From NCBI RefSeq assembly GCF_000497125.1, contig NC_090601.1:1364001-1428000 (forward strand): a stretch of 64,000 bases of DNA, given 5' to 3'. The notes under the pieces are model-generated. The model made no database searches. It saw only the letters and a program-made list of their open reading frames with translations, and was not told the DNA's origin. Each line of letters begins with the position of its first letter. The stretch's first letter is position 1. Made by a program: the position numbers and the translations under genes. Source of the DNA: Spironucleus salmonicida. Taxonomy: Eukaryota. Below, one piece after another: positions 11,218 through 59,391 of this stretch.

Positions 11218-14200
11218 ATGTCCTTCCCCTAATCTTTGTAAGCTATATTACCCATTAAGGAAGATGCGATGTTCATCTTCTAAACAAGAGAATTCAATCA
11301 GTAAAATCCGAATTCGCTCACATCCATTATCTTTAGACTCCTATTCTAGGATGATATTAAAGGTGTATTGCTTGTCATTTACAAGACTTCTGACATAGAT
11401 ATCCTTTGTATTTCTGATGCATCCTTCACCAAATTAGCACAATTTTAGTCCCCATAAATTAGAGTAATAAAAGTAGAGAAGGGCGGTGATATCCCCAAAG
11501 GCCTAACTGATGTCATCGAAAAGATGAAAACACTACAAATGGTATCCTATGCGGATGATGTGACCTCAAATTTAACACAAAAACTCATCGATAACTTAAA
11601 ATCAAACGCCGTAACGATAAGCAAACTATCACTTCCAGAAAGATTTTACCACCTCCAACCGTCAGATTTCCCACAAATAAAAACTGCAGTGGCTGCCGCG
11701 CAAACTTCATTCACAGCAGCCATTGAAGCACTTACCAAACGTGCTCCAAAGCTTATAGTCGATAAAATCTTCGCCGGTTACGAAACCATCGAGAAATCTA
11801 ACTAATTCTCGATCTTCACACCCTAGCAAACCAAATTATCTATTACGCAAACCCTCTAGGAAGGCGCACTGGCGAAGGGCCTCGCCGCGTTGCGAGCTGG
11901 GTTCTCTTGTGCCTCGGAAATGAAGGAGAGCAAATTCCAGGCGGTCCAAATTTCTTGCAGCTCAACGCTACCATTCCAAGTTACCCTTGGCCGCATGGCG
12001 ATCGTCTGCCCTGAAGCGCTCAAAAAAGACGTCTAAATCGCGCTGGACAAGCTCGTGGAGCTGCATGAATTGAGCATCAAAGCGGTCCTTCCGGATATGA
12101 CAAGCGACCAGCTAAATGCAGCTTTTGGCAAGCTCAGAACAGCTTCAGAGCTCAAAATAAGCGAGAAACTGTCGATTTCGGCCGTCTGCGGAGCCAGCCA
12201 GGCCGGAATTTCGCTGAAGTCCGACATGCCGAATTTGCACTGCCCAATGAGCGCCAAAAGCGGCGATTCAGCGTTCGTCACTGACGCAAATACGCCGTTT
12301 TTAATCCGCACGACCGCGCTGATCGAAGTGGCTGGAAACGCGTTTTACGCGACTTTTGCGGACACGATTATGCCGATGGAGGCCGAATCGGTAAGCCAGA
12401 AGTCGCTCACGAGCCCGTTTCACACGCGTGCGAGCGTGAACGAGGTTTTGCGCGACTATTATATCATTAGAGAGGTGATTTCGGAGCAGCCAAAAACAGC
12501 ACCAAAACCCTCAAAATATCCCGTAAACACCCCTTTGAAGCAGAAAACGCTCGACGATTCGGACGATTCGGACTCGAATTCGGCCCAGGACGTGCTGGCG
12601 AAGCGGCGCGAGGCGCAGGCGAGGCGCCGCATGCTGAACGAGCGCCACGAGGAGCTCAGAACACTCCTGAAGGAGGACATGCAGCGGCGGCTGCAGACGC
12701 AGAAATTGATCTGCGACGCCGAAAACGCGCAAATCATCGAAATTGCGTACAAAGAAATCACAGATTTGCCGCACGCGCTCGAATTCACCAAAAATTCGGT
12801 CGTTCCGGGCGAGAAAATGTTCTTTTTCATCAACGGGCGCCCTGTCTGCTTTTTGAGTTCACTCCTGCACTCCGTGACCGTCTCTGGGGACGACAAAAAG
12901 CAGATTAGGATCAAGTTTATCGCGCCTGGTCAGATCGTCGGAAAGCGCGAAATGCACCCGCAATTGGAGAGTTACAGCGAGTACTCGTTTTTGAAAGAGA
13001 TCGTTTTGGAGACTTCGAACTTTTCGGTCGTTGGGAAGATCACTGACCGCTTCGAGAAAATCCGGCAAAATGCCGACAAATCGCGTCGTTCTGATGCCAC
13101 TGATATTTATCAGTTTGCAGAGTTCGACGTCGATTATTTGACGCCTAACATTTTGCGTGACTTTTTGACCTCTTTGGAGCCAATAAAGAGCACGAAATCG
13201 CTGTTTTAGATCGGATCTAATACAATCGGTTAGACGCTTGAAATGCGGCCTAAAATGAAGTCTGCTAACGGCGGATAAGGCAGGAAGGATCAGGGTGATT
13301 TGTCGATTTTAGAAAATGGCATAAAATACAGATATGCGGCTGCTGGCTAGGCTGCTGTGGAGATTTTCTTCTGTTTCCGAGGAATTCGCAAGATTTTCTA
13401 CGAGAAATTCAGAGATAATTAGCATTTTTGTGTGGTCAGTATTTTGCTGTACAAAGGCGTCAGAATCGAGGAGATTATTGTAGATTAGGGAATGCTGAAA
13501 TACATCGTTTAAGATCCCAATATGTACGAAAGGTTCACGTTCATATGCTCTATGGAAACATAAATGCAGCTTGGGTAAGGCAGAGATAGAGAAGAGGCAG
13601 AATAAGAGAACCAAACTAGGTAGATGATGAGGCGCGCGAATTCGCGTTTTGAAGAGTTTTTTGATAAGCTTAATTAGTAAGTAAACGAATATTGTCAGCT
13701 AATCACCGCTGAAGAAAGGGCCAAGAATCCTACTTTTATCAACCCAATCGGTATGATAAGCTAAGTATCTAGAAGGACCAAAATGCTCAAATTTACTGGT
13801 TCGGTTGAAATGAAAGGGTAGCAGTAAGTGTTCTCTTATGATCCGAATTTCCTAGGTGTTTTTAATGGTAAAGTATAGAAAACAATCGATATGAGCGATA
13901 TTCAGATTGTTGTATTCGAAAATATCAGCTATTCGACCCATAATGCGTTTTAAATTGCCTTTGTGTACAAGGATATACGTGTTGAACCCTATATTATAAG
14001 ATAAATTTAATTCCATTTTGTTACGGATCTCCAAGACTATTTCACTGAAAACAAAGTCTACTGGGCTGAGTTGAACGATTCATGTGTCTGGGCCGAAATG
14101 AGGAAGCGATTCAACGCATCCAGGGAAGAATATGAGCAGTTTGTTATAGATGGTGGCTGGGTATACGAATTCGGTCTAAACTCGGACAACGAGGGTGTAG

Positions 14201-17111: not shown

Positions 17112-17852
17112 ATGTCACTTCCACCTGGATTTGTCTTAGAATAGAAAACTTTTGAGCTTTCATTCACTTAACCGAGTTAGATATCAAGACAGTATATTAA
17201 TTAATTTACTGATCATATACATACAGCTCCTAGCCCTATTTCGACTAATCAATAGAATTATATCAAAGCTACAGCAATTTCCAGAATCAACAAAGTAAAC
17301 TAACAGAAAGATATAATATTACCCTATTTACTATCATTCCCTGTCAGTTCTGATCTGATCCCTTCAGCATATGCACTAAGCTTTGATAACTTTGCCATGA
17401 TTGTCTCTTCCAAGGTGGAGAAAGAACTTTAAAGAGTTACAAGACTCTCAAGATCCGCCAAGGGTATATAAATTTTAACAAATTTACTTCAATCTGACAC
17501 CTAGTTAAAACCAGAGTGTATACAGTATTTGCTGCATTTGGACCCTATGTTTGGCTTGCTTAATAGTCTCAAAGACTACATTATTAAGAACAATATATTC
17601 AACTTAGTAAAATCTGACATTATCAACTCAGAATGCATTGCCTTCCTGCCAATATTTCTTGCCAGCATCACTATCGACGAGATAATAGACCTATGTAAAC
17701 TTCCAGCAAAGCCTATTACTTTCTGGATATATATGAGAAATATCGTAAAAGATATGGACTAGGATCAAAAAGATGATTTATCAATGGCCTCCCTGGACTT
17801 CGATGGTAAAGGAGAAGAATTTAACAAATTTGTTATGGAAATTGTAGAGTGA
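17112..17852 (+). CDS. Hypothetical protein (246 aa)
   Basis: Code-6 ORF containing track ORF 17529; ends GAG-TGA. Confidence 0.7.
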
Positions 17853-18762: not shown

Positions 18763-19624
18763 TATTAATAACTTATTGTACTGTAATTATATCGGCTGGA
18801 AATTAATTATTACTAGATTCGACTGATACGCTATTTAGATTTTTAAAACTAATGATTAGTCTATTTTTCAAATTTTACGGATAAATACACACTATAGTAA
18901 TAAAACATAGTATACTTCAAATATATAGTCATATTTTATTGAACAAACTAGATAATATAATTATTATATAATTTACATATATGTTTAGCTAAAATTATTC
19001 GTAAGAAACACAAGATAAATTACTATTTACTAGTTATAGTGAATGTATTAACAAAAATAATTAAGGATCAACATATAATTTAGCACGAGTAAGTATTGCT
19101 ACTTATTGAAAAAAATATATTGATTTCATATAATGTATATATATAATTAATCATACGATTTTCAATTAGAATTTAATGTATTCCATGGAAATTTAAAAAA
19201 TAAGCAAGCATGGCTAAGAAACTTAAAATATATTTAATCGATTTTATTCTATAATCTCTGCATTACATAACTCTTTTTCAGTTCTATAAGAATAAACTCA
19301 AGCTATGAGGACACTAAGTCCTTTTATACTTTATGGTCATATTTATTAGAAAATATTAAACTTTTTAAATAAAACACATCTGAGTTTATACTTAGTTAAA
19401 TTAATTCAGTTATAATCTGTGCACTAAATTTACAAATTAGTATACACCAACTTTAAAAATACACTAAATACTAAAAAATCTTATAATATATCTAGGTCTA
19501 AAATTATAATATTACACTATAATATTACAATTTCAAAATTATATTATTTGTTGTAAGAAATAATATTGGCATAAACTGTATCTTCGGCTATATAGAACCA
19601 CTCTATGATTTAACGCCTTCTAAT

Positions 19625-20056
19625 ATGTCTGATGAGTACCTCGAGATGCTGAAGCCGGACCCCCACATGACGCCGGCGATCCAGGCCGAGATCGACACCT
19701 TCCCCAAGCTGTCCCGCGCGCAGTAGGTGAAGTTCTTCCAGGACAGATGCGGGGGCTGGGAAGACGAGACCACCTGGAACTTCTACTGGCAGTACATCCG
19801 CATCATCCAGGACTAGGACGACAACGACAAGATCATCTCCGAGATTTGCGGTGATTCGACCCACACCAAGGAGGAGATCGATGAGCTTGAGAAGCAGCTC
19901 ACCGATGCGAAGCTGAAGTACGCCGGGCTGCAGAAGCAGAAGAGGGAGGCAGACAGCGTCGCAATGGGCAACATGCAGCGCGAGGCGGAGAAGCTCACCC
20001 AGGAGCGCCAGGACGCCGCCGCCCTCCAGCAGGAGCAGGACGAGCTGAACATGTGA
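19625..20056 (+). CDS. 'WNFYW' family coiled-coil protein, copy A1 (143 aa)
   Basis: Strongly GC3-biased ORF MSDEYLEMLKPDP...WNFYWQYIR...ELNM. Confidence 0.85.
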
Positions 20057-20076
20057 TTGGTTTGCTCACTCATTCA
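19625..20076. repeat. Inverted near-identical duplicate of 27939..28390
   Basis: Reverse-complement match with only a few substitutions (e.g. GATGAG/GACGAC, CTT/CTC). Confidence 0.95.
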
Positions 20077-20464
20077 GTTCCTCTGCCGCCGCTGTATCGT
20101 CCTAAGCACGATCCTCTACTGCTTCCTATCCTATCTTCTTATTCTGGCGATCCTCTACCACACGCTGATGACGCTGCTTCGCATCCTCCAGCTCCTACTG
20201 GGCCTCACGTAGTTGAAGCTCCAGAGCAGGAATATCAGCATCAATCTCTTATGCTACTTTCTCTGTTCCGTCCCGATCCTCAATTGGTCGTAGTATGCGC
20301 CAGTAGAAGTTCCAAATAGCCACCTGGTGCATTTTTGGTAGCCACTAATTGCGCCAGGTTCGTTATTCCTCGGATGTAAGTGTTGGATAGAGTGCGATTG
20401 CATCATGCGTATCTTGCGGGGTATCTGGGTCTTTGATCAGGTACTGGACATACTGGTCTGACAT
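20066..20464 (-). CDS. 'WNFYW' family coiled-coil protein, divergent paralogue B (132 aa)
   Basis: MSDQYVQYLIKDP...WNFYWRILR...ELNE; colinear with A1; ends GAG-TGA. Confidence 0.8.
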
Positions 20465-20916
20465 TTGTGGAGGGGTGATTGGGAGTGGTAACGTATGGGG
20501 ACCAGTGGAAGTTTCACAGTTAAACATAGTGCATCCAGTTAGTACTAACATTTGATGGCAAATTGGATTGTTATACTTAAATTGTTTACAAACATTACTA
20601 AGATGCTGTAAAAAATTATCATTATGGATGATATATCTTGTATAGTTTGATATAATTAGAAATACTATATATAATATCTTTATATGATCTCTATCAGTCT
20701 ATATATGAGTTTAATTCTACTAGAAAAAAGAACTGATGTTTTCATAATATTCTACAATATTAAAAATACAATAGCTATATTGTATATTAAGACCATAACG
20801 TATTTATACTATATATATTCCGCTTTTATTAAGGGGTTTACCATCCGCCCTCCATATAACTAAAAATTAAATATATAATATATATTAAAAATTAAATTAG
20901 GTCTTCTCAGAAATTA

Positions 20917-21507
20917 ATGTCAGATTCGTCCACTTCCTCGAAACCTCTTGCAAACGAAATTTAATCCTTTAATGAATTTATATAACGTTTTAAATATCCT
21001 ATAATAGCTACAATTATAGCTATTATTCCATTTTTATTCGCTCTATCCCCTTGTCCTAACAACTTCAAAAAACACCAATTCACCTGCAAATTAAACGACT
21101 GTGAGTCAAAATGCAATGGTGGAGGATGTAGGTATGATCCTGTGAACCATAAATTTTCTTGCGTATGTAAAATTCATTTTGAAGGGTAATATTGTGAAAA
21201 TTGTGAAGAAGGTTATTTATATCAAAGCGATACAAAAGATTGTGAGCTTAAATCTTGTGTAAATGGGAAATATTAAAATGGAAAGTGTATATGTAAAGAT
21301 AATTATTCAGGTGATTATTGCGAAAATTGTAAAGGATAAATATATTAAAATAAGTGTATATTAAATATCGTTTGTAATGAAAAATAAAAACAGGTTTTTT
21401 CTGGGGGTTAGTTCAGCTGCTAGTGCAATAATGGATTCACTGGTAATAAATGCTAAAAATGTGAGAAAGGAAAAGTAGTTGTGGATAATATCTGTGTACA
21501 AAAGTGA
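20917..21507 (+). CDS. Cysteine-rich EGF/laminin-EGF-like protein with N-terminal hydrophobic anchor (196 aa)
   Basis: PIIATIIAIIPFLFALS followed by repeated CxCxxxFxGxxCExC motifs. Confidence 0.8.
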
Positions 21508-21517
21508 ACGATTTATC

Positions 21518-22090
21518 TCATTTTACCTGCTTAACATCTGCAATTACCGTGCTAAGGATAGACTTATACCCATCATTTGATGTATTATCAATATTAAAAT
21601 CCCAGGTAAATGATTGATACCATTTGTAAGTTTTGTCCATCCAGTCACGTGAGTCCTCCGAGAAATTTCTTCTGAAAGGCTCTTTAGCGAGTCTATCCTG
21701 AATTCTGACCCATAGTATTTCAGAGTCGACACTAATGTTAACAGTTGTGATTTTGATACCAACCTTGCTCATTTCCTGTATTTATGAATATATTAACTGC
21801 TTAAATGCAGCCTATTCTGATTCAGTACATTTTGAGTAATACAAAGCGCAATATGGTGACCTATCCGCATAGATTGTTTTGCCTTTATGTTGTTCGTAGA
21901 GGCGAAGAAGCCTATTAAACCAGTTTGCTACCCAAATAAATTCCATTGTAAGAGACTAGGAATGAATAATATCATAGTGTGGCATATCAATAAACATTTC
22001 ATCTAACACAATTTCTCCCTACTCTATTAAATGTTCACATATTGTTGATTTACCTACACCATGACAGCCCTCTAAACATATTACGTTCAT
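21518..22090 (-). CDS. P-loop (deoxy)nucleoside/nucleotide kinase-like protein (190 aa)
   Basis: N-terminal ICLEGCHGVGKST, DRS motif (YADRSPY), lid 'RIQDRL'. Confidence 0.75.
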
Positions 22091-22381
22091 TATAAGAGGA
22101 AAGTCGAACTTATTAATTAAAATTATTTATATTATAATATGATTTATAATATTTCTGTTATTATTTCCCGGTATAGTTTAAGGAAATTTTTAATTATTAA
22201 TTAAAAGTAAATCTAATTATTATATTTGTTTTAGATAGAATTGATATAAAATAATTGGTATATTTATAATGTATATAATATTTATTACTGTTTAACAAAT
22301 AATATATATTATACTTTTTATATTGTATTATTTTTCAATAAAGATAATAAATGTCATTAAACAAGATACAAATATTACTAA

Positions 22382-23869
22382 TCAAGTTAGCCTCTTTCTA
22401 TTTAACTTAGACCGCTTAATAAATAATATAGATCTTACAATACCATAAATTGCAAAACAAATACAACCAACTATTAGTGTTACTCCTATTGTAGAGATTA
22501 TTGTCTCCATAGCATTAAAATTTACCCGCTACACATTATCAATAATGACTTCATATATTTCACCATCCATGCTCATTCTCATTATAAAATCTCTTTATCT
22601 AAAGAACTCAGAATCTGCTTCAAATATTATTTAAGCAGTGTTTTCTCCAAAAACTTTCAAAACTTTGCTTTCTTGAAGACTCATGCTCAATAAAACAAAA
22701 ATAGCATTATGATGCTAACATTACCCATTACTAAAAAATGAAGCATTAATTTATTTATTAGATTGAACTACACCAGTTGCTCGCGTCCAACAAGTTTTAA
22801 CTACTGTTGGTGTAAATTTATACAAAGACGCAATACTACCATCGACCTTGACTGAAAAGATGTCTAAATTCAAGTTATCATATTTTTAACTAAGAACAAG
22901 TTATTTGCAGATATCAATATCCTCAATATTTTAATCTTCACACCTTAACTAAATTAATCGATCTGGTTCAAGAGGATCATTATATATCATTTTAAAGGAA
23001 TATGTTTTATGAGCTAGTTAAAAAGAAAATTTAAATAAAGTCTAAGCACCTTTAGACAAAAGATATGTCTCATATAAACTACTATTGTAACTAACATTTA
23101 AATAAAATTTAGAATTCCATAAACCAACGCCAACTGCAGTTAGAAAATTAGGGACCGTGCTTAGTAACATTTGACCTATTTCATGATTAAATTTTACTAT
23201 AGTACCATTTTAATAACTAGAAAAAACAATTTAGCCGCTTAGAAACGGTATATCAATGGTAAATAAAGCGTTAATATTGATTTTTAATTATTAAAATTAG
23301 TCAGAATAATCAAAATCTAATAAATCCAGATCTGCTTGAACACCATTTATAGTAAACTATATTCTTTCAAGATAACTAGTCGTACCATGAGCTGGAAGCT
23401 ACATCTAAGTGATACATAATCCTGTCGGCTATAATGATACTGCTACATGATTTCTAAATATTTGTGCTGTTGAATTTGGATAATAGCATTATTAAAGATT
23501 AGATTTTTAGATAAAAAAATTATCTATATATTGTGTAATTATTTCTCCGTATGTATAAATATCTAATTATGCAGTGTATATTTTTCCTATGATTACTCCA
23601 GTTGGAAGAGCATCATGAAATAAAATTACAGCTGTTTTTTCATAATCATAATCATCAATAGTGGTCATTATCAGTGGAATTTTATCACCGTTTGGACTAT
23701 TTATAGTTAAGTTTGCTCTTACACCTAAAGGCAATGCTCTACAACGGATATTTTGAGTTGAAATCAAATATATTTAGATTTTGTTAGTATTAAGATCATA
23801 TATTATTGATGTATTACTAGCATAACAATCATATATAAGAGTTTGAAAAATTTATAATGCTAGAAGCAT
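22382..23869 (-). CDS. Type I membrane surface protein with sparse Cys (495 aa)
   Basis: Short hydrophobic N-terminus then DCY...CRALPLGV. C-terminal TM (TIGVTLIVGCICFAIYGIV) and basic tail. Confidence 0.75.
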
Positions 23870-24727
23870 TTTTAAACTAATTATTTTAATCCAACATATA
23901 TTGCACTTTATTAATATAATACTATTATTATTATTATTATTTTAATATTCCATATAAATATCATTATGTAGACATAAAAAGGATATATAATGATATTTGT
24001 TATATTTTAGTAATTCTCATAATAATTTAGTTGATCTGAATAATATCTTTATTATATATAAATTATAGTATTCATAATATATATATTCAGAATTTTTGAA
24101 TATCTGTTCATAGAAAGGGTAATAGCAATAGCGTTAATATCTTGCTAGAATATCTTAATATAAATATATATATAAAATAATTATTAAAATGTTTTGTATT
24201 CTAACATACATTATATACATTCTTTATGTATAAATCGCCGAATTTTAGCAATATGTAATTTACAAAAAGAAACAAATAATATATTTCATATAGATATTAT
24301 GTATTCGTGTAATTTTAATCCGGATAATAAAATATATTAATTATCTTAGATGAAGGCAACTTGTAGTACTTAATAAACTCAATAAAATATTGAAATTACA
24401 TCTTCAAAACTACACAGTAATAACTATTTGCTAATTATAACTAGTTATTAAATATGTGAAACAGCTAGCCTTGCTATGCTCCTTATCATCTTCGATTTAA
24501 ATGATATCTTTTAGGAAATCTTTCATTACATAGCCGAATTTAGCCGCATCTAAATAACAATCAAGTTCCTTCTCAGAAAATTTAATTACGATAATTGGTT
24601 ATTTCCATGTTTCTACTTTTTATAAACCCAAAACCTCTTAAATTTTATTAAGACCTATCCGTCAATCAAACTCAGATTTTAATATATTATTATATAATTA
24701 TCTATACATACTCATAATTTTTTTAAA

Positions 24728-25690
24728 ATGCCGCTGACGACCTAGTCAACCAAATCCGCAAACCTCATCAAACTAATGGAAAACTACCCCATTTCCTCCC
24801 CTTCTAGAATGAGTACACCAAATATGAACGTTATCCAATCCGATCTGCTTAGCGAAGACCTTCTACGAAAAATCGACGATCTGACCTCTAAATTTCACCG
24901 CGAGGACCCCACAAACACAGAATTCGACCTCCTAACGATCCAAAACAACAAATTCAGCGCCCTAGAGGCCCAATCTGAGCTTTTTCGCAAAAATAATTTT
25001 AACGCCCCACAGGTCCTAAAAGACTTCGGCGAGCACGTGCAGCGCCTCACGGACATCGCGCAGGCCTCCATCGACACGCTGGACCTCCAGTGCGCGCGCG
25101 AGCAGCACGAGCTGAAACTCGCTTACGACATGGACGTTTTCCGCCTCCAGAAGATCCTAAACGACGTCCAAAGCGAGAATTCGAAGGCGCAGCGCGCGCT
25201 CGCCCTCGCGAATTCGCCCAAAATTCGACTTTTCACTTCACTTTCCGCTCCCCAAAAAATCGATTTTTAGCTCAAAATCGACCGTTTCCAGCGCGATCTT
25301 TCGGGGCGAATTTCGGGCTTCGCGGCGGCGCTTTTCGAGCTCGAAAACGACCTCAAAATCCTCGATGCGACGCAGAAACAATTCCTCGAAATCAGCTGCC
25401 AGGTGTGCCAGAATGTGCTAAACAAGAGCCAGACGCCGCTCGTTTTGAGCTGCGGGCACGGGATTTGCAGCGGCTGCTTTTCGCACTTTTACCATGAACC
25501 ACACGATTAGAAAGAATTCACAAATTAGGAGTGTAAAATTTGTGGAGTGGTGATATAAGGAGTGGTGGTCGATCGGGTGATGCTGAGCAGAATTTAGGAG
25601 GGGCAGCTGAAGATGGACGACATTATTGAGGATACTTTGGGGATGGTTTAGGAGGGGCAAATGCTGGTGGCGCAATATGGGGTCATTTGA
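24728..25690 (+). CDS. Coiled-coil plus C3HC4 RING finger protein (320 aa)
   Basis: CQVC-x-CGHGICSGC-x-CKIC after reading through TAG at 25268. Confidence 0.85.
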
Positions 25691-26113
25691 GGATGTGCGG
25701 TGGGCGCGAAATTGAGATGAAATTGGAGTGTAAATGTAGTATTTGTATATAATAATCATAATTATTTGAGGAATTTAGTTTCTATCTTGGATTAGATAGT
25801 ATGAAAAAAATTTGGCTAGGGGTAGTTCAGAGGCGTTGGAATGATTAATCGGAGACGATATTTGGAAGTTACAGGTGATGAAATTATGATTGTAATATAG
25901 CTAATAGAGGATTTTAGATGCAGCAGATTTGCTTAGTTTGTAATTTTCAGTTCCTGGTTTTCGCAGATAAGAAGTTTGTTCTAAAATATGCTGAAAATTC
26001 AGTTTTTTCTGTCTATAAGGTATTGGCATTTTATATAAATATTATCTTAATATCAGAAAAAAGTAACTATAGAATACAATTCTAATAAACTTAAATTTTT
26101 CCTCGTCTCAAGA

Positions 26114-27659
26114 ATGCTCATAACAATGCTATCCTATCATTTACCTAATTGCTACAATTAGGCGACCGCCTAGTATAATCAAAATCTTAAGACAGTTCAG
26201 CTCAATCTATAGCCTTTACAAAATCCTGATTGTTTGTTTCTTGTAGATGAGGTCATATTTTAGCTTAATTTTCATGACAAATTTCGTTCTGTGAAGTTTA
26301 TCAAGAGCCATTTTAATTTTACTAGTACCTAGATGATTGTTATGGAGAAGATTGATATTCTAAATGATGACAGTGATGGACTCACAATGCCTTTACATGC
26401 TACTCTTAATATTTCAAACTTAGCCTTTTGGACCGAAGTACGCGTTGCTTATGTTGGGAGATAAGCTGCATAAATGGATTAATGTTTTTATTAAGCTGGA
26501 AGTCAGTTTGAGATAAAAGAGGATCGGTTTGAATTCCGCCTAAATCTGTCAGATGCCTGTTATACTGAAATATTTACAGAATCTAAATAATTCTAGTATT
26601 AATTGAACTAGAAAGCAGCAACAGTGAAAATCATCCGGTTTATTGATGACCCAGATAATTTCAATTGCTAGATGGACTAAGTCTAACGAGTATATTTTTG
26701 CACTCAGTTAGGAGATTTCTCAGACGACTTAACCATTCCTTTCACTTAAGCTTCTGTAAAATTCTTTATCAACTATCTTGGTATATTATACACAACAGAA
26801 ATATAATTTAATGAAGTCGTTGTTGGTCATATCAAAACTTTATTCAGCTCCATAAACCCTTCTTTCTATCGAGATATGATGTAAGTATCATTTACATATT
26901 CATAGAATGCATTATAAAATTGGAAAATGCTCACATAAGCTTCTGATTTATTTATTTCTAGGTTAAATATTTTAGGCCCCAATTTTACATAATCTTTCTA
27001 AATAGAGAGTCCATAATTTGATGAAACAATTCTTATATTAACAGAAAAATGCAAAGACTAAATTTGTCTAGATAGTATGGTTTATATAAATGAAAATATG
27101 GCATAATTCTAATTTTATTTTGATATTTCCGCATATTCCGGAGATAAAATAGACGGAACTTCAGGGCAGATATTTACTGCTAGTGCTGCATGTGTAAATC
27201 GAGTACTAACGAAGACTTATTCCTCCACTAAAGTATGTTTCTTAGTAATAAAGTCTGACTTTTTTACTACAAATTCGAACTGTTTTCTCTTTGCTGATGG
27301 GGAACCAACAAATATTACAGCAGTTTCACTTGACACAACTACACTGCATGTAGGGAAGTTTTGTAAGACTTAGCAGGTTAACTTTAGCTTTGCAAACCCT
27401 ACTATTTGTTTTGACTGCCTCGACTGCATAATAGAGATTACGGATTTTGCATAAAGCAGAATGTCTGCCTTTATATATACATTAGAATAATATCAGTTTC
27501 ACTGGCATGGGGACATAAATTTAGAAAGCTAATATTGCTCCTATGATGGCTGCTACTTTCACAATAGGATGCATTTTTGTATTTTATTACCTCATTGACA
27601 CAATTACTAAAGTAATTAGTTTTGTTCAAATGTGGAAAAAGTATAGGAAGGCTAGATGA
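26114..27659 (+). pseudogene. Surface protein of the same family as 22382..23869, apparently frameshifted near 27472-27479 (annotated frame stops at 27598; TM and basic tail are in the +1 frame, ending 27659)
   Basis: Traced codon by codon. The family-type C-terminus IQKANIAPMMAATFTIGCIFVFYYLI...WKKYRKAR lies in another frame just after a (TA)4 tract. Confidence 0.6.
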
Positions 27660-27958
27660 AATATTAAAGGCACTAAGTTTTTTCTATATGATTTATGAGC
27701 AGCTAATGATATACAAGATCTGTGATTCAACTTTTTTAATATATTAATATGTTATTATTCCCAAAATATTTGAATCTATCAGATTTAGTATGTATCATCT
27801 TAGTAATATAAACTATTCTAATAAATTATATTGCATTAGTTATACCTAAAATTATAGAATTGAAATCATGTTTATGCTTATAAGACTACCCAGTAGGTCA
27901 GAAAAATCAATCAATACACTTAAAGGATACAAATAAATTGAATGAGTGAGCAAACCAA

Positions 27959-28390
27959 TCACATGTTCAGCTCGTCCTGCTCCTGCTGGAGGGCGGCGGC
28001 GTCCTGGCGCTCCTGGGTGAGCTTCTCCGCCTCGCGCTGCATGTTGCCCATTGCGACGCTGTCTGCCTCCCTCTTCTGCTTCTGCAGCCCGGCGTACTTC
28101 AGCTTCGCATCGGTGAGCTGCTTCTCGAGCTCATCGATCTCCTCCTTGGTGTGGGTCGAATCACCGCAAATCTCGGAGATGATCTTGTCGTTGTCGTCCT
28201 AGTCCTGGATGATGCGGATGTACTGCCAGTAGAAGTTCCAGGTGGTCTCGTCTTCCCAGCCCCCGCATCTGTCCTGGAAGAACTTCACCTACTGCGCGCG
28301 GGACAGCTTGGGGAAGGTGTCGATCTCGGCCTGGATCGCCGGCGTCATGTGGGGGTCCGGCTTCAGCATTTCGAGGTAGTCGTCAGACAT
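27959..28390 (-). CDS. 'WNFYW' family coiled-coil protein, copy A2 (143 aa)
   Basis: Near-identical inverted copy of 19625..20056 (E4D change). Confidence 0.85.
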
Positions 28391-28754
28391 TTAAAGAGTG
28401 AAAAACTAGACTATGCATTATCAGTATTATAACCAAATAATATTGAATATTTATATTCATGATATATTACATAGACTAGAAATATTCATGTAATAATTTA
28501 TTATTTTAGTACAAAAAGACGATTTGATTATTTTTCCATAAGTATAATTGAGATAATTTACTGCTGATTTACATAGAAATTATAGAATTTATTTGTCAAA
28601 AGATAAGTAAGTTGCGTGATAAATCTTTAACTTAGGCCTTAGAAATAATAATTTGCCCAATAATGTAAACGAATGAGCAACATATTCAAGCTAAGCTAAT
28701 ATCAAATTATAAGTGAATGTAATAACTACGATAAAACAGATAAATAAACAAATA

Positions 28755-31294: not shown

Positions 31295-32065
31295 ATGGCT
31301 ACAAAATAATTAATATGTCTTCTTAGCAATAACGTACTGCAAGGTATATAATATATTGAACTTGCTAAAATTTATGACCAATCTATAGGAACGTTGCTCA
31401 ATATTACTCATTCTGCTTAGTAGTAAATATTTTCATCTTCTTTATTTAAATACTACAGCAAGTATTAACAATTTTTCCGTTCTGAACTTTAAATAATTGC
31501 AAAGGATGCTTTGAAGAAGTAAAAAGTGGCGTCAAAGGTTAAAAACATTAATATTTTAGAGGCTGCATTTTTGGCTATAAACGAAGGTGCTACAGTTGTT
31601 TAAAATAAATTTTAGATGAATGAGGCCAGATAACTTAACATGGAGATGGTCTATTCTGAGGAATAATTTGATGAACTTGTTAACAATATCTTAAATGAGC
31701 GCGTATCACACTAACTCTATCACCTTAGTAAGATTAAACAATTTGACTACTACAACTTATCATTAGCAACTGAGGTAATAGAAAAAATACAGCTTGAGAT
31801 CTAATCTCCATTTGCTGACATGGAAGCGTTTAGAACTGCTTTAGATAAGAGAATTTTAAGTGAAATGAAGCCTTAAATATCGCTTATCTATAAAGGTTAT
31901 AAAGAAATGAGAGCAGATAACAAGTTTGACTACACCATGCTCCTGACCTGCTGCTTTTCAGCGTACGTGCTTCATATGTGCGGTTACTGCTTCGACGAAG
32001 CCGAAAAAGGATACAAGATCATCGTTAGCAAGAACGGAGCTGTTGTATACGAGCTCGCTGAATGA
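31295..32065 (+). CDS. Hypothetical protein (256 aa)
   Basis: Open code-6 frame MATKQLICLL... to TGA. Confidence 0.65.
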
Positions 32066-32169: not shown

Positions 32170-33576
32170 TCATTAATACTTTTTCATCCAGTTCAAATGG
32201 AAAACTCTCCATCTCTGCATAAGTTCGAGCATTTCATCCTCATCGGGAAGAATTGTCATCCTCAGGTGGTACGTTCCAGCTTTCTGTCCGAAAACGTTAC
32301 CGGGGAGGCAGATTACGCCAACCTCCTCGAGCAAATCCTGGCAGTAGAGCTCATCTGCCGACTTCCCGGCGGCCTTAGCTGCTGAAATCGCATTCGCCGA
32401 AGCGTGAATTCTGGGGAAAACGTACATTGCGCCGGTGGGAGTCCGACATGAAATGCCCTCCCAGCTGTTCATCTCGGTGGCGACCATATGCGCCTTTTTG
32501 GTTAAGGAGTCCAGAATGCTCTGGTACTCCCTTTTCCATACCTCGTAGCTCGGTTCGCCCGCCTTTGGGGGCTTCACAATCGCGTCCATGGCGATCATAC
32601 CATCAGTATTTATGGCACCCAGAGAGATAATATCGAGGAGCTGCGTCAACACCTCTTTATCGATGTTCTCGGTCTGCCAGTATGCGCCTCTACGGCCGCA
32701 TTCGCCGTACATGGATTTGGAGGCCGAATTGATCGAAATAAGCTCAAGGCCTTTGCATTAGTTTTGGGCCTCAAGCTCTTTGAGGCATTTTCTGCATGAA
32801 ATGAAGGGGATATTGCTATAGATATTGTGTTGGTAGACTTCATCTGCGATGACTAAAAGATTGTGCTTTGATGCAAATTTGAGCATGTTTTTCAGGTTCT
32901 GAATAGTTTGGACAGCACCTACTGGGTTATTCGGGTTGATTACTACAAGGCAACGAACAGTTTTGTCGGTTTTCTTGATTGCTTCCTCGAGAAGCTTTTC
33001 ATCCACCGCCCAGTCGTTTTCTTCATCCAGCTCATAAGAAATCTCATGACCGCCAAAATATGTAGCTGTGGCGTTGTAGAGAGGGAAACCTGGCTTTGGG
33101 CATAAAATAGCGTCTTGATCACCTCTGATGATTGGGCGTAAAATGTTCATTATACCATCCGTTGCACCATTACAAAGGAAAACAGAATCTGCAGAGCAAG
33201 GACTAGAGTCACGAGTGGAAATGTACTCTGCTACATGTTCTCTAATGATTTAAACTCCTTCAGTTTGCTGATAGCTGCCAGTATTTTTTCCGATACAAGA
33301 ATTTAAGATTTCTCTGCATCTTTCAATAACATCGGCTGGGAAAATGTTCTTTTCCAATAATTCTGGATAAATAGTTCCAGCAATCAATTATCTTACAAAT
33401 TCTACTTCTTTTTGGCCTACAGAATTAGGATTACCCATATTGCATCTAATAAGCTTTTTAAAGGGGGCAGTCCCGTTTTCTACCTTTTCATTGATTGCTT
33501 TGAGATCTAAATTAACCATATTAAACTTAGTATTGAATAAGCCTGGATAGCAAGTGTCTTTTGTCAAGACTGGCAT
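32170..33576 (-). CDS. Alanine aminotransferase (PLP, class I; 468 aa)
   Basis: CNMGNP, VVINPNNPVG, ADEVYQHN, SASKSMYGECGRRG, GAMYVFP, HLRMTILP. Confidence 0.93.
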
Positions 33577-39196: not shown

Positions 39197-39224
39197 AAAA
39201 CTCCATTTTTATAATTAGTCTATT

Positions 39225-39275
39225 TATTATATAATAATAAGTATATACAAACTTACGTCCGCTCCACGCCAAAAA
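39225..39275 (+). promoter_or_regulatory. Representative promoter: TATTATATAATA box followed by a C-rich element just before the ATG
   Basis: Same layout upstream of many genes (e.g. TTTCCGCATAAATG at 59452, TTATTCCGCAAAAATG at 63254, TTCCACTCCAC before PF20). Confidence 0.55.
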
Positions 39276-41573
39276 ATGAACCGTTACAAAGAGCTCAAAA
39301 CGCTCGGAAAAGGCTCGTTCGGCCGGGCTGCGCTGGTCGAGGAGATCGCAACCAAAGAAAAATTTGTCATGAAAATCATTCAGATATCGCAAATGAAGCC
39401 AAAAGAGCGGGAGGAGGCGCTGCAGGAGTCCAGAATCCTCGAGAAGCTCCAGCACCCAAACATCACCTCCTACCGCGAGTCATTCTCGGACGCGAAGTTC
39501 CTATACATCGTGATGGAGTACGCGAACTCGGGCGACCTCTACGAGCGGATCAAGGCCCAGAAGGCGAAGGGCGCGCTCTTCCCGGAGGCGCAGGTCTGGG
39601 AGTGGACGATCCAGATCTGCCTTGGTCTGAAGCACATCCATGACCGCCGCATTCTGCACCGCGACCTGAAGACGCAGAACATCTTTTTGAGCGTCGAGGG
39701 CGGCCGACACGTCTGCAAAATCGGCGATTTCGGGGTCTCTAAAATCCTAAATTCGACGATGGAGTGCGCCAGAACGGCCATAGGAACACCATATTACCTC
39801 TCTCCCGAGCTGTGCAACAACCAGGGCTACAACAACAAATCCGACATTTGGGCCCTCGGGTGCATGATTTACGAGATTTGCACGCTGAATCACACGTTCG
39901 AGGCAGCGAACATGAAGATGTTAATCGTCAAAATTCTTGAGGGGAAGTACAAGCCGATTTCGAGCGTCTACTCGAGCGAATTGCGCGATTTGCTCACGAT
40001 GATGCTCCAGAAAGACCCCAAAAAGCGGCCTTCCGTGAATTCCATTTTGAAAATGCCGTCGATTCAGACGAAATTGCACAAATTTCTGCCAGAAACCGTC
40101 AAGGAAATGGAGTTTGCGCACACCGTCTTTCACGGCCAGGGGAACATCATGAAGGGCTTCAAGGAGGAGGACGAGATTAAGTAGATTATGGGTGGAGCTG
40201 CCTTGTTTGGGAATGCGGGAGGCCAGAAACCGGCTGAAAATGAGGTTTAAAAGGTTGTTGTTTAACCACCTGGAATAAATTATCCGACGAATTTGGCTAA
40301 ATCGAAATAGCAGGTTACGCCGATGGTCAAATAAGTTACGCCGTAAGCTAAATAAGCGACTGCAGTTAAGCGGGTTGCACCTGTTTCGCAGTAAAAATCA
40401 TCAAATTCAGTGCCTTCAGATAATACATTGTTTGGAAAATTGAACGAATTAGATGATCTACTGGCCATGAAATCACCTAGTTCATAGGATAGCAATAAAC
40501 CAGTTTAATAATAATAGCTATCTCCAAATTACAATCCATTTTCGTATCCGACACCTCAAAATTTACCGACACCTCCATAGAATCAGCAGAGTAACTAATC
40601 TAATACACCAAATAATCCACTAGCATATAACCCACCTCCGCAATTTGCATAGAAAAATGCTCAAAAAAATCTAAATAATCATTAAAAAGACGTTATTTCC
40701 AAGCTTGCCCCTATGAACGATCGTGATAGAGCTCGATATATGCGGGAAAAGGAACTCCAAGATAAGAAGGATCGTGCATAGTAGTTAAAGCGTTAATCTG
40801 AAGAAAAAATTGCTAATGCTAAGGCTGCTGTCAAGCAAAAATACGAAAAGATCAACCATGAGTACGACTCTAAATTGTAAGCTAAAAAAGAGAGTATGTA
40901 CAGAGATGAGGAAGATTTAGCACGCAGGGCAAAAATTTTAGAAGATAATAAAAAGGCAGAAATGCTAGCGAAGAAGTAGTACGAATTAGAGTAGAAACGA
41001 CTTAACTCTGAGATTGCTGAAAAAGAGAGGAAAAAAGGAGAGGATTAACGTGAGAAGCTGAGATAAATGATGGCGCAGAAAAGGAAAGAAAAAGGTGGCG
41101 GCAATCAGTTTGGTGAGATAGAGGTTATTGAAGAGGCTGGAGCTGGGTAGAAAATGAGAGAAAAATTTGGCGAAGGAGGTGCTGATTATTAAAAGAATTT
41201 ACAGGCTAAAGCCTCAGTTGATATGAAACAACCAGAAAAAGTGTGTGAGGAGGAATCTGAGTCATTTGGAGACGCTCCAGATGCTAATTTTGCTTAAGCA
41301 AATGCAGCAGATGAGTGGAAGAACAAGCTTAATTCCACAGATGGTAAAGAAAGTTTATGTTACCGGATGGAGAGTTTGCGGAGTTTCATGGAGAAATAAC
41401 TCGGGTTTGATAAATTTATGAACGTTTATCAGTCAGTTAATAATGCAAGTGCAAATGATGAAGAAATGGACGATAATTACGTAAGAGAACAACTTGGTGA
41501 TGATAATATGGGATATATGAACTTGATAGTTTAGTTAATTTTGGTAGAGTAGAAGTTTAATGAGAGTTAGTGA
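39276..41573 (+). CDS. NEK kinase, NEK1-like (765 aa)
   Basis: HRDLKTQNIFL, IGTPYYLSPE, then a Q/P-rich linker, coiled coil, and NEK1-type C-terminal 'ESLRSFMEKQLGFDKFMNVY'. Confidence 0.92.
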
Positions 41574-41667
41574 ACGTGATTTGTGGGGTTTATAGTTACC
41601 TTTGGTATATTTTTTTTAAATAATGTTATCTTCATTCTAGATTTTAATACTTAAGGTATGAAGTTAT

Positions 41668-41751
41668 ACCAATTTGGCCGAGTGGTTAAGGCGGGTGACT
41701 CAAGATCTCCTGGGGGCTAACTCCGCGTGGGTTCAAATCCCACAGTTGGTA
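41668..41751 (+). tRNA. tRNA-Leu(CAA)
   Basis: Acceptor ACCAATT/AGTTGGT-A, A box TGGCCGAGTGG, anticodon loop CT-CAA-GA, long variable arm, GGTTCAAATCC, downstream T-run terminator. Confidence 0.95.
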
Positions 41752-58746: not shown

Positions 58747-59391
58747 TCACTTTTACTTTCGAATTTGTTCAAAATCGTCAATTTTGATTTTGAACGTCAT
58801 AACGCCATCCTTATCATAACCCTGACTAATCCCTGAGGACGAGCAAACTTGCTACTTCGGAACTGGCTTTTTAAGGGTTTTAACGGGTTTTTCAGGCACT
58901 CCCTATGCCTTTACGGCCGAAAATTCAGCATTCTTCGCCATTTCGGGTTTTCTGCACTATGCTGTCTTAGCTTGTTATATCACCTACTTCTCCCTTTCCA
59001 CTTCTTTTCCCTTCCTTTCAACGCTCCCTTATATCACTTCTTCAGCTTCACTTAAAGTCCTCTGAATTTCAGAAAAATCGAAAGTCGCCCGCGGCAAATT
59101 TGGAACGCGGGAGCGCGAAATCGGCCGCGAAATGACAATTTCGGAGTTCGAATTTGAATTTGAATTCAAAATTTCGCTCACAGAAATCGATTTCGCGCGC
59201 GAAGGAGCGAGCGATTTTTGCGATTTCAAGATTTTGATTTCCTGTTGAAGTTCCAGAATTGTGCTCTCCTGCTGGGACACAATTTCCTGCAAATTGCTGA
59301 TTTTGTTGATTAGGAGCAAATGATCGATTTGGGGCGTTTCCGGGGTCTAGGAATTCGGTTAGAGCCTTGAAAACAATTTTTGAATGTTCAT
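58747..59391 (-). CDS. Hypothetical coiled-coil/low-complexity protein (214 aa)
   Basis: Code-6 extension of track ORF 59029..59319; ends AAG-TGA. Confidence 0.65.

What the first reader, a model, noticed from the sequence alone, without database searches (positions are those of the whole stretch)
24660..25900. Recurring skew-switch GC islands: candidate replication origins or recombination hotspots
Seen by eye: on the + strand, a strongly C-rich/G-poor left flank (24660-25000), a CpG-rich centre (25030-25370) and a strongly G-rich right flank (25530-25900). The same polarity recurs around 12.5, 39.6 and 59.1 kb, 13-20 kb apart, crossing gene boundaries. Established: a C-to-G skew switch marks bidirectional replication origins in many genomes. 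Inference: fixed, closely spaced origins, or DSB/gene-conversion hotspots, written into coding DNA. This is my best candidate for an undescribed system here.
Basis: partly seen in the sequence, partly recalled or inferred. Interest (0 to 1): 0.75.

Follow-up and report, generated by a model that had tools for sequence, protein, structure and literature searches.

The report
Strand-skew switch at GC islands
A sharp change from C-rich to G-rich DNA sits inside one small gene of the salmon parasite Spironucleus salmonicida; it is the strongest case of a weaker, short-range pattern around the genome's known but unexplained GC-rich patches, and it fits local recombination repair better than replication origins.

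Summary
The + strand GC skew runs from -0.60 (24600-24799) to +0.65 (25700-25899) across a GC- and CpG-rich centre.

The window is Spironucleus salmonicida: TAA/TAG read as Gln, gene-dense, intron-poor. The switch lies inside one + strand RING-finger gene, and one RNA-like contig crosses it.

Two regularities overlap:
- **Gene gradient.** Sense strands run from C-rich 5' ends to G-rich 3' ends at codon positions 1 and 2, which reflects amino-acid usage.
- **Island-centred jump.** At third-codon and non-genic sites, GC skew and TA skew both jump upward at GC-island centres. This holds for 13 of 15 islands, and 0 of 3000 circular shifts reach the observed mean. It survives removal of the focal island.

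The island asymmetry fades within about 1 kb. Islands lie about 3.4 kb apart, not 13-20 kb.

Fixed replication origins are therefore unlikely. My preferred reading, as an inference, is local gene-conversion or repair hotspots with AT-to-GC bias and a strand-specific step. The G+C mosaic is already published and unexplained. I found no published report of the skew jump.

The parts
24515..24950 (.). C-rich, G-poor block on the + strand (skew -0.43, GC 0.35). It covers about 230 nt upstream of the transcript and the 5' part of the RING gene.
   Evidence: transcript start
24878..25605 (.). GC island (GC 0.52; 300-nt GC >= 0.45); third-codon GC reaches 0.75
25030..25370 (.). CpG-rich centre: 48 CpG against 27.2 expected (o/e 1.77); GpC o/e 1.44
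25458..26009 (.). G-rich, C-poor block on the + strand (skew +0.48). It covers the 3' end of the RING gene, the spacer, and the first ~170 nt of the next + strand gene. It ends in a sharp G-to-C return at about 25950.
24728..25690 (+). RING-finger gene (320 aa from ATG 24728, code 6), with a coiled-coil-like N-terminal part and a C3HC4-type RING at the C-terminus. RNA-like contigs start at 24739-24749, so the ATG actually used may be 24776 or 24808.
   Evidence: exact protein in the collection and no other homologue; weak RING Pfam hits, all below the curated cut-offs; codon usage; RNA-like contigs 24739/24745/24749 to 25700/25734
25841..27598 (+). Next gene downstream (585-aa ORF, no Pfam hit). 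RNA-like contigs start at 25819/25825. The exact 585-aa product is not in the collection, so the annotated start may differ.
22382..23953 (-). Divergent upstream neighbour (523-aa ORF, membrane-protein-like). An AT-rich spacer at 23954-24738 showed no RNA-like contig between 24000 and 24600.
11738..13159 (.).
39342..40274 (.).
58963..59234 (.).
19617..20079 (.). Left arm of a 98.5-99% inverted repeat (partner 27936-28396), itself a GC island. The two arms bracket the 7.9 kb that holds the focal gene.
27936..28396 (.). Right arm of the inverted repeat; a GC island (GC 0.60)

Best explanation
The focal feature is the extreme case of two superimposed regularities in the S. salmonicida genome.

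**(1) Gene-anchored gradient (shown).** Sense strands go from C-rich near the 5' end to G-rich near the 3' end. The cause is amino-acid usage: C-termini hold more Glu, Asp, Gly and Val and less Thr, Pro and Gln. The pattern is unchanged by reverse complement, so genes of either orientation give the same C-to-G polarity on the + strand.

**(2) Island-anchored asymmetry (shown).**
- At weakly constrained sites, the left part of a GC island and its flank is enriched in C and depleted in T. The right part is enriched in G and depleted in A.
- The asymmetry reaches at most about 1 kb beyond the island.
- The islands are the species' published, unexplained G+C mosaic.

**Mechanism (inferred).**
- The islands are sites of recurrent local recombinational repair or gene conversion, between alleles, nuclei or paralogues, with an AT-to-GC bias.
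- A strand-specific step moves outward from the initiating lesion. It could be repair synthesis on the strand that runs 5'->3' away from the centre, or strand-directed mismatch correction in the polar heteroduplex.
- That step makes T-to-C prevail on one side and A-to-G on the other.
- In the short RING gene the island sits mid-gene, so both regularities add up.

My confidence is about 0.85 for the descriptive part and about 0.4 for the recombination mechanism. The score given is for the mechanism.
For: **Gene gradient.**
- The last 100 nt of the CDS has sense skew > 0 in 20 of 20 genes, mean +0.30.
- The gradient sits at codon positions 1 and 2: pos1 +0.125 to +0.448, pos2 -0.355 to +0.024.
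- Likelihood gain 2dLL is 54 and 52 for the gene gradient, against 1.2 and 9.7 for island side. With 25 genes the result is the same.

**Island asymmetry at position 3.**
- Island side 2dLL = 19.8, or 15.2 given the gene gradient. The gene gradient adds 0.9 given island side. The strand coefficient is 0.02.
- With 25 genes the island-side coefficient is 0.140 +/- 0.039, gene-cluster bootstrap 95% 0.028-0.264. Without the RING gene it is 0.123, bootstrap 0.014-0.248.
- Circular-shift tests: 13 of 15 islands, 0 of 3000 shifts. Without the focal island: 12 of 14 islands, again 0 of 3000. TA skew co-jumps, p = 0.003 and p = 0.001.
- The result holds at island thresholds of 0.40, 0.45 and 0.50.

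**Third-position letters on the + strand.**

| Region | A | C | G | T |
|---|---|---|---|---|
| Left parts | .279 | .271 | .226 | .225 |
| Right parts | .250 | .211 | .289 | .250 |
| Elsewhere | .356 | .146 | .161 | .337 |

Both sides are AT-to-GC enriched, with T-to-C dominating on the left and A-to-G on the right. The focal gene shows the same: C41/G15 at pos3 in the first 101 codons, C5/G29 in the last 56.

**Range.** In the four longest gaps the outward skew falls from +0.274 (0-300 nt, 8 of 8 flanks) through +0.12 (300-1000 nt) to +0.013 and -0.027 beyond 1 kb. This is about the size of a conversion tract; that comparison is recalled knowledge.

**Link to recombining DNA.**
- Near-identical repeats make up 9% of the window, with GC 46.9% against 34.6% elsewhere. 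They hold 6 of the 19 islands.
- Genome-wide, duplicated regions are 44.7% GC against 30.7% for the rest (PMC9509377, one passage).
- The high-GC3 state is not shared by S. barkhanus orthologues (PMC2874811, passages).
- The G+C shifts ignore gene boundaries and remain unexplained (PMC1805757, sections 6 and 15).
Against: - No recombination signal was measured. The DNA contigs laid on 22001-28000 show no variant, so conversion cannot be seen directly.
- The focal gene has no paralogue among proteins of 176-560 residues, so ectopic conversion is not indicated there.
- Island edges often coincide with gene ends. For sites at least 300 nt from a gene end, the pos3 GC-slope coefficient is 1.58 +/- 0.70, bootstrap 95% -0.25 to 3.75. 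At 450 nt or more it is 0.92 +/- 0.84, not significant.
- At the strictest island threshold (0.55; n = 8) D_GC is +0.087, p = 0.175.
- Per gene, only 14 of 22 have a positive pos3 slope coefficient.
- The polarity expected from cytosine deamination on resected 3' tails is the opposite of what is seen (my reasoning). The strand-specific step would therefore have to be synthesis or mismatch correction, and its predicted sign depends on unknown repair preferences.
- The direction of change (AT-to-GC gain against GC-to-AT loss) is inferred from composition, not from an outgroup.
- Everything rests on one 64-kb window, on a gene list of my own, and on a focal site picked by eye.
Confidence: 0.4

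Rival explanations
1. Gene structure and selection alone. The polarity is the sum of the amino-acid gradient along proteins, C-rich promoter and 5' sequences, G-rich 3' ends, and codon context. The G-rich 3' ends may carry 3'-end formation signals, because 3' UTRs are only about 13 nt. GC islands look skew-centred only because they sit inside genes. The focal gene is an outlier picked by eye from about 8000 genes. No mutational centre exists.
For: - 20 of 20 genes are G-rich in the last 100 nt. The 100 nt upstream of starts has mean sense skew -0.14.
- Strongly skewed blocks sit at gene ends in a sense-specific way. Sense-G-rich blocks lie at relative position 0.84-0.99 in RING, ABC, NEK, u655, TM523, WD40, GltD and u214. 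Sense-C-rich blocks lie at 0.01-0.10 in AsnRS, RING and ABC.
- The strongest switch in the window (21100, D +1.00) is inside an AT-rich Cys-rich gene, with no island, and sits mostly at codon positions 1 and 2.
- An 11-nt C-rich promoter motif about 10 bp upstream of the ATG is published for 16.7% of genes (PMC3916229, passages).
- 3' UTRs average 13.2 nt (PMC1805757, section 7).
- Interior-only tests of the island effect are borderline.
Against: - At position 3 the gene gradient adds nothing once island side is known (2dLL 0.9), while island side adds 15.2. With 25 genes the figures are 2.2 against 12.6.
- The focal G-rich block runs through a stop codon, a spacer and the 5' end of the next gene.
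- TA skew co-jumps at weakly constrained sites.
- Interior island edges still show a mean outward pos3 skew of +0.17, positive at 7 of 11 edges.
Confidence: 0.3
2. Fixed bidirectional replication origins at the GC islands. Leading strands that run outward become G+T-rich, as around bacterial origins and as proposed for human CpG islands.
For: - Upward jumps of both GC and TA skew occur at island centres at weakly constrained sites.
- The polarity matches that reported around human CpG islands: A-to-G/T-to-C below 1 upstream and above 1 downstream (PMC2817419, abstract and section 14).
Against: - The asymmetry vanishes within about 1 kb even where the next island is 4.4 kb or more away: +0.013 +/- 0.039 at 1.0-1.5 kb and -0.027 +/- 0.038 at 1.5-2.2 kb. 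Fork-direction asymmetry should last to the termination zone. In the human case it is constant over hundreds of kb.
- 19 islands in 64 kb would mean one origin per 3.4 kb.
- The local skew of +/-0.6 is far above the usual replication skews (recalled).
- The return switch at 25950 is as sharp as the jump.
Confidence: 0.08
3. Divergent or cryptic transcription, or R-loops, starting in the island, as at mammalian CpG-island promoters. The non-template strand on each side would become G+T-rich.
For: The polarity and the kilobase scale fit. The centre is GC- and CpG-rich.
Against: - RNA-like contigs of three runs start at 24739-24749, in the left flank, and run unbroken through the switch to 25700-25734. 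The next transcript starts at 25819/25825. These are contigs, so strand and rare antisense RNAs cannot be seen.
- Position 3 shows no coding-strand effect at all, b = 0.02 +/- 0.03. Transcription therefore leaves no detectable asymmetry in these genes.
- Antisense transcripts were rare, about 1% of ESTs, in this species (PMC1805757, section 7).
Confidence: 0.07
4. A structural artefact or relic at the focal site: an old palindrome, a mobile-element insertion, or an RNA gene.
For: None found.
Against: - Left flank against the reverse complement of the right flank: local alignment score 25 against a null of 23.4 +/- 2.7.
- No terminal repeats or target duplications stand out.
- No Rfam match at E <= 1 in 23500-27000.
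- A DNA contig of the source-like run covers 22001-27968 without any difference.
Confidence: 0.02

Closest known systems
The variable G+C mosaic of S. salmonicida (Andersson et al. 2007, PMC1805757; Roxstrom-Lindquist et al. 2010, PMC2874811; Xu et al. 2022, PMC9509377)
   Same: It is the same thing: sharp G+C shifts within contigs and within genes, followed by GC3, not tied to gene boundaries, recent in this lineage, and higher in duplicated regions. The window reproduces all of this.
   Different: None of the four Spironucleus papers I opened contains the word 'skew'. The island-centred strand asymmetry may explain their puzzle that GC3-rich genes use codons non-randomly (low Nc'). That link is my inference.
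Bidirectional strand asymmetries originating at human CpG islands (Polak & Arndt 2009, PMC2817419)
   Same: GC- and CpG-rich islands with T-to-C excess on one side and A-to-G excess on the other, in the same polarity. [quoted passage not shown]
   Different: The human asymmetry is weak (ratios 0.93 and 1.09), constant over hundreds of kb, and ascribed to replication. Here it is strong locally, gone within about 1 kb, and the islands lie inside coding DNA of a compact genome with no general CpG depletion.
GC-biased gene conversion at recombination hotspots (yeast, birds, mammals; recalled, not read here)
   Same: Local AT-to-GC enrichment at synonymous sites on a scale of 0.3-1.5 kb, independent of gene function.
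   Different: Classical gBGC is described as strand-symmetric. A left/right switch between T-to-C and A-to-G is not part of the standard model as I recall it. My search for it returned 3 papers, none on hotspot-centred skew in microbes.
GC-skew minima at bacterial replication origins and skew jumps of human N-domains (recalled)
   Same: Upward jump of GC and TA skew.
   Different: Those asymmetries span whole replicons. Here the reach is at most 1 kb.

Membership tests
Replication origin marked by a skew jump | Upward jump of GC skew and TA skew at the site, at weakly constrained sites | tested here: met
   D_GC +0.228 (13 of 15 islands; 0 of 3000 shifts); D_TA +0.092 (13 of 15; p = 0.003)
Replication origin marked by a skew jump | Asymmetry persists outward to the termination zone (replicon scale) | tested here: not met
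   In gaps of 4.4 kb or more the outward skew is +0.274 at 0-300 nt, +0.013 at 1.0-1.5 kb and -0.027 at 1.5-2.2 kb
Replication origin marked by a skew jump | Initiation of DNA synthesis at the site (nascent strands, ORC/MCM binding) | not testable with these tools
   No replication data are available. Searches for diplomonad or Giardia origins together with GC skew found nothing relevant.
GC-biased gene-conversion / recombination hotspot | Local AT-to-GC enrichment at synonymous sites, independent of gene limits | tested here: met
   GC3 is 0.64-0.81 in islands against 0.15-0.35 elsewhere, and it changes within single genes, for example 0.81 to 0.31 in the NEK-like gene.
GC-biased gene-conversion / recombination hotspot | Association with DNA known to recombine (repeats, paralogues) | tested here: inconclusive
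   Repeats have GC 46.9% against 34.6% elsewhere, and 6 of 19 islands lie in repeats. The genome-wide figures are 44.7% against 30.7%. The other 13 islands, including the focal one, are not repeated in the window, and the focal protein has no paralogue.
GC-biased gene-conversion / recombination hotspot | Excess of AT-to-GC over GC-to-AT substitutions or conversions, polarised by an outgroup or seen in crosses | not tested
   No outgroup DNA and no whole genome were available. The DNA contigs show no variants.
CpG-island promoter with divergent transcription / R-loop skew | Transcription starts in the island and diverges from it | tested here: not met
   RNA-like contigs start at 24739-24749, left of the island, and cross the switch in one piece. 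They are contigs, so rare antisense RNAs are not excluded.
CpG-island promoter with divergent transcription / R-loop skew | Coding-strand asymmetry at neutral sites in transcribed DNA | tested here: not met
   Pos3 strand coefficient 0.02 +/- 0.03 and -0.00 +/- 0.03
Gene-anchored compositional gradient (protein composition) | Sense-strand skew rises from 5' to 3' at codon positions 1 and 2 | tested here: met
   Gradient coefficients 0.82 +/- 0.10 (pos1) and 0.77 +/- 0.11 (pos2), with bootstrap intervals excluding 0. 20 of 20 genes are positive in the last 100 nt.
Gene-anchored compositional gradient (protein composition) | The same gradient accounts for the synonymous-site skew | tested here: not met
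   Pos3 gradient 0.15 +/- 0.10, with 2dLL 2.2 given island side. Island side has 2dLL 12.6 given the gradient.

The most novel reading that the evidence does not exclude
The G+C islands of S. salmonicida are fixed initiation sites of a bidirectional, strand-asymmetric AT-to-GC process. The likeliest candidate is recombination-initiated repair synthesis or mismatch correction in a parasite whose sexual cycle has never been seen. The skew jump marks each initiation point to within a few hundred bases. If so, the 'peculiar phenomenon' left open in 2007 could be tested directly, and recombination initiation sites could be read from sequence alone.
Probability: 0.3. Interest if true: 0.65.

Novelty: new variant of a known kind. 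Interest (0 to 1): 0.5.

Why it matters
The G+C mosaic of this fish parasite was described in 2007 as explained by neither mutation nor selection (PMC1805757, section 15). The papers I opened do not resolve it.

A short-range strand asymmetry centred on the islands adds a constraint. Whatever builds the islands acts outward from a centre and treats the two strands differently. That excludes plain regional mutation bias and plain codon selection.

It also points to processes that can be mapped: double-strand breaks, repair synthesis and replication-fork direction. This would bear on hidden recombination in diplomonads.

As a claim about replication origins, the finding is probably wrong.

Tried and rejected
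- **Whole genome:** none is held. All statistics therefore rest on the 64-kb window.
- **Earlier notes of this scan:** none.
- **Old palindrome at the focal flanks:** rejected.
- **Mobile-element ends, RNA family, tRNA at the focal site:** none found.
- **Homologues of the RING protein, to polarise changes:** only the protein itself among 176-560-residue proteins. Longer and shorter proteins were not searched.
- **RNA evidence:**
  - No listed holder is on record as RNA. Four runs are guessed to be RNA.
  - Their contigs give transcript extents but no strand or level.
  - The stretch 24000-24600 had no cover in those runs. I do not use this as evidence of silence.
- **Heterozygosity across the island:** no differences are listed in the DNA contigs. 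Contigs drop rare variants, so this says nothing either way.
- **Cytosine deamination on resected DSB tails:** the predicted polarity is the opposite of what is seen (reasoning only).
- **A first logistic fit with approximate standard errors** was replaced by exact ones with a gene-cluster bootstrap.
- **Flank counts** were miscounted by a script slip and redone. Only one search is cited.
- **An automatic gene caller of my own** mis-called some genes, for example the PQ-loop gene, and was not used.
- **Gene lists used (20, 22, then 25 ORFs):**
  - Confirmed by exact match in the protein collection: 24728-25690, 32170-33576, 2622-4181, 6128-7618, 17112-17852, 31295-32065, 20917-21507, 50781-51200, 51610-52374 and 58747-59391.
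  - The other ORFs with Pfam support were kept.
  - Four ORFs without either were also kept. 22382-23953 and 25841-27598 rest on ORF length and RNA-like contigs; their exact products were not found. 59452-61419 rests on ORF length and coding score only and was not looked up. 26360-27598 is a shorter version of 25841-27598 used in the first (20-gene) list.
  - For the RING gene the later lists use ATG 24776, and for the SPT16-like and AsnRS genes starts of my own choosing (11458 and 16500).
  - Ten other ORFs whose exact product was not found were left out.
- **Supplements of the papers** could not be seen. [quoted passage not shown]
Full report
**What the window is.**
- Under the standard or bacterial code only short frames are open. 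With TAA/TAG read as Gln, long intron-free ORFs appear.
- These ORFs have clear Pfam families: NSF-type AAA, AGC and NEK-like kinases, SPT16, AsnRS, PQ-loop, WD40, alanine aminotransferase, ABC transporter, SNF2, a GltD-like oxidoreductase and SHIPPO repeats.
- The alanine aminotransferase is 58% identical to that of Hexamita inflata and 54% to that of Giardia muris.
- A second record in the cluster of ORF 2622-4181, on the same 1.67-Mb contig, is named Spironucleus salmonicida.
- The window has 35.7% G+C. In 1-kb windows this ranges from 21% to 53%.

**The observation.**
- It is real at the stated coordinates. The left flank 24660-25000 has 92 C and 39 G. The centre 25030-25370 has 48 CpG against 27.2 expected. 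The right flank 25530-25900 has 121 G and 26 C.
- In 200-nt windows the skew goes from -0.60 to +0.65, and G+C peaks at 61.5%.
- The window-wide SD of 200-nt skew is 0.199, and 3.2% of windows reach |0.45|.

**What lies there.**
- One + strand gene, 24728-25690, encodes a 320-aa protein that is present letter for letter in the protein collection and has no other homologue among proteins of 176-560 residues.
- It has weak RING-finger Pfam hits, all below the curated cut-offs, and a complete C3HC4 spacing whose last Cys pair lies in the G-rich part (sequence).
- Contigs of three runs that are probably RNA start at 24739, 24745 and 24749, with adapter-like loose ends just before two of them. They run unbroken to 25700-25734. 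The next transcript starts at 25819/25825.
- The switch is therefore in the middle of a transcript. The C-rich block begins about 230 nt upstream of that transcript. The G-rich block runs through the stop codon, the spacer, and about 170 nt of the next gene.
- The change is not only in amino acids. Third positions have C41/G15 in the first 101 codons and C5/G29 in the last 56. Leu changes from CTN to CTG/TTG, and Gln from CAR to TAR.

**Recurrence.**
- With G+C >= 0.45 in 300 nt there are 19 islands in 64 kb, not four.
- The three other named sites show the polarity weakly (12.5 and 39.6 kb) or strongly (59.1 kb).
- At |D| >= 0.5 there are 7 C-to-G and 13 G-to-C switches. The return at 25950 is as sharp as the jump at 25500.
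- The pattern 'C-rich left, G-rich right' is unchanged by reverse complement. Any feature that makes the 5' part of a gene C-rich and the 3' part G-rich on the sense strand gives the same + strand polarity for genes of both orientations. Gene orientation cannot separate the hypotheses.

**First regularity: a gene gradient.**
- In 20 genes the last 100 nt before the stop have positive sense skew in 20 of 20, mean +0.30. The 100 nt upstream of starts average -0.14.
- The gradient is at codon positions 1 and 2: pos1 goes +0.125, +0.25, +0.448 and pos2 goes -0.355, -0.234, +0.024 for the first 300 nt, the middle and the last 300 nt. At position 3 it is slight: -0.055, +0.05, +0.09.
- C-termini hold more Glu, Asp, Gly and Val and less Thr, Pro, Gln and Asn.
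- Strongly skewed blocks sit at gene ends in a sense-specific way.
- The strongest switch in the window, at 21100, lies in an AT-rich annotated gene for a Cys-rich protein, and is mostly at positions 1 and 2.
- A published 11-nt C-rich promoter motif may add to the 5' C-richness (PMC3916229, passages).

**Second regularity: an island-centred asymmetry at weakly constrained sites.**
- I took third-codon plus non-genic sites, one copy per repeat. The left part ran from the island start minus 300 nt to the midpoint, and the right part mirrored it.
- GC skew rises by +0.228 on average, positive in 13 of 15 islands. None of 3000 circular shifts reaches this.
- TA skew rises by +0.092 (13 of 15; p = 0.003).
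- Without the focal island the values are +0.194 (12 of 14; 0 of 3000) and +0.094 (12 of 14; p = 0.001).
- Logistic models of G against C separate the two regularities cleanly:

| Codon position | 2dLL, gene gradient | 2dLL, island side |
|---|---|---|
| 1 | 54 | 1.2 |
| 2 | 52 | 9.7 |
| 3 | 0.9 (given island side) | 19.8 (15.2 given the gradient) |

- Without the RING gene the position-3 island-side values are 13.5 and 11.4.
- With 25 genes and a gene-cluster bootstrap the island-side coefficient at position 3 is 0.140, 95% interval 0.028-0.264.
- Position 3 shows no coding-strand effect, 0.02 +/- 0.03.
- Third-position letters on the + strand:

| Region | A | C | G | T |
|---|---|---|---|---|
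| Left parts | .279 | .271 | .226 | .225 |
| Right parts | .250 | .211 | .289 | .250 |
| Elsewhere | .356 | .146 | .161 | .337 |

- Both sides are AT-to-GC enriched, with T-to-C dominating on the left and A-to-G on the right.

**Limits of the second regularity.**
- Island edges often coincide with gene ends. For sites 300 nt or more from gene ends the position-3 slope coefficient is 1.58 +/- 0.70, with a bootstrap interval that includes 0. At 450 nt or more it is 0.92 +/- 0.84.
- Per gene, 14 of 22 coefficients are positive.
- At an island threshold of 0.55 (n = 8) D_GC is +0.087, p = 0.175. Thresholds of 0.40 to 0.50 give p between under 0.0005 (none of 2000 shifts) and 0.0265.
- Of the 37 island edges, 28 have positive outward skew. 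Of the 11 edges inside genes, 7 do.
- The gene list is mine. The window is a single one, and the focal site was chosen by eye.

**Range.** In the four gaps of 4.4 kb or more (8 flanks), outward skew at third-codon plus non-genic sites is as follows:

| Distance from island edge | Outward GC skew | Flanks > 0 |
|---|---|---|
| 0-300 nt | +0.274 | 8 of 8 |
| 300-600 nt | +0.118 | 7 of 8 |
| 600-1000 nt | +0.121 | 5 of 8 |
| 1.0-1.5 kb | +0.013 | 4 of 8 |
| 1.5-2.2 kb | -0.027 | 4 of 8 |

**Mechanism.** Three kinds of process act outward from a centre and make the outward-running strand G+T-rich.
- *Replication from an origin.* Fork-direction asymmetry should last to the termination zone. It does around human CpG islands, where the same polarity is constant over hundreds of kb (PMC2817419, abstract and section 14). 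Here it ends within 1 kb, and one origin per 3.4 kb would be needed.
- *Divergent transcription.* Transcripts do not start in the focal island. Position 3 carries no coding-strand asymmetry. Antisense RNA is rare in this species (PMC1805757, section 7).
- *DNA synthesis or mismatch correction during repair of a break.* This has the right reach. It also links to independent facts about the islands:
  - They are an AT-to-GC shift at synonymous sites that ignores gene limits (PMC1805757, sections 6 and 15).
  - The shift is recent in this lineage (PMC2874811, passages).
  - Duplicated DNA is GC-richer, both genome-wide (44.7% against 30.7%; PMC9509377, one passage) and in this window (46.9% against 34.6%; 6 of 19 islands in near-identical repeats).
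- I therefore prefer local gene-conversion or repair hotspots with AT-to-GC bias and a strand-specific step.
- This is an inference. No recombination signal was measured. The focal gene has no paralogue. Simple deamination of resected tails predicts the opposite polarity, so the strand-specific step is unspecified.

**Comparison with what is known.**
- The G+C mosaic itself is published and was called unexplained.
- The word 'skew' does not occur in the four Spironucleus papers I opened.
- Searches for diplomonad with GC skew (4 papers), and for Giardia with replication origin and GC skew (4 papers, 3 listed), found nothing on this.
- A search for biased gene conversion with strand asymmetry, hotspot and GC skew gave 3 papers. 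The human CpG-island study among them is the closest analogue.
- The island-centred asymmetry may also account for the published puzzle that GC3-rich genes use codons non-randomly. That link is my inference.

**Verdict.**
- The origin reading is disfavoured. The hotspot reading is viable but unproven.
- A good part of the visible polarity is ordinary protein-composition gradient.

Noticed in passing
window 19617-20079 and 27936-28396: A 460-nt inverted repeat, 98.5-99% identical and GC-rich, brackets 7.9 kb that holds the focal gene. It encodes the C-terminal part of a small paralogous family; a third, diverged copy runs convergently at 20066-20700. It could serve as a substrate for inversion or gene conversion.
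   Followed up: partly
window 45318-46799 and 53363-54844: A 1482-nt direct repeat, 99.8% identical, 8045 nt apart. Each copy has an AT-rich part and a very GC-rich part (GC 0.66).
   Followed up: partly
window 55901-58495 (- strand): An 864-aa SHIPPO-repeat (sperm-tail PG-rich) gene holds an internal duplication with 1212-nt spacing (56022-56965 against 57234-58177, 95.5%; sub-stretches 100%). A second SHIPPO gene lies at 61483-62643.
   Followed up: no
all listed genes; e.g. window 41273-41573, 38441-38741, 47248-47548: The last 100 nt of coding sequence is G-rich on the sense strand in 20 of 20 genes, and C-termini are rich in Glu, Asp, Gly and Val. With 3' UTRs of about 13 nt in this species, signals for 3'-end formation may lie in the coding end. 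This was not tested.
   Followed up: partly
window 24728-24810: The annotated start ATG 24728 of the RING gene lies upstream of the RNA-like contig starts (24739-24749). In-frame ATGs follow at 24776 and 24808, and a C-rich stretch precedes the latter by about 10 nt, like the published promoter motif.
   Followed up: partly
window 41667-41752 (+): tRNA-Leu (anticodon CAA) lies 94 nt downstream of the NEK-like gene's stop, within a long G-rich block (40858-41717).
   Followed up: no
window 20917-21507 (+): The strongest C-to-G switch of the window (D +1.00 at 21100) lies in an AT-rich annotated gene for a 196-aa Cys-rich, EGF-like protein, with no GC island. It is driven mostly by codon positions 1 and 2.
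   Followed up: yes
window 12037-13209, 39219-40184, 15481-16359: Inside GC islands the reassigned Gln codons TAA/TAG are absent over 290-390 codons, so these stretches read as open frames under the standard code too. Outside the islands the same genes use them often.
   Followed up: no
window 2622-4181 and 6128-7618 (+): Two neighbouring annotated genes for 519-aa and 496-aa proteins with no Pfam family look like distant paralogues. They differ strongly in G+C (0.43-0.59 against 0.30-0.40), which makes them a possible pair for polarising the GC shift.
   Followed up: no
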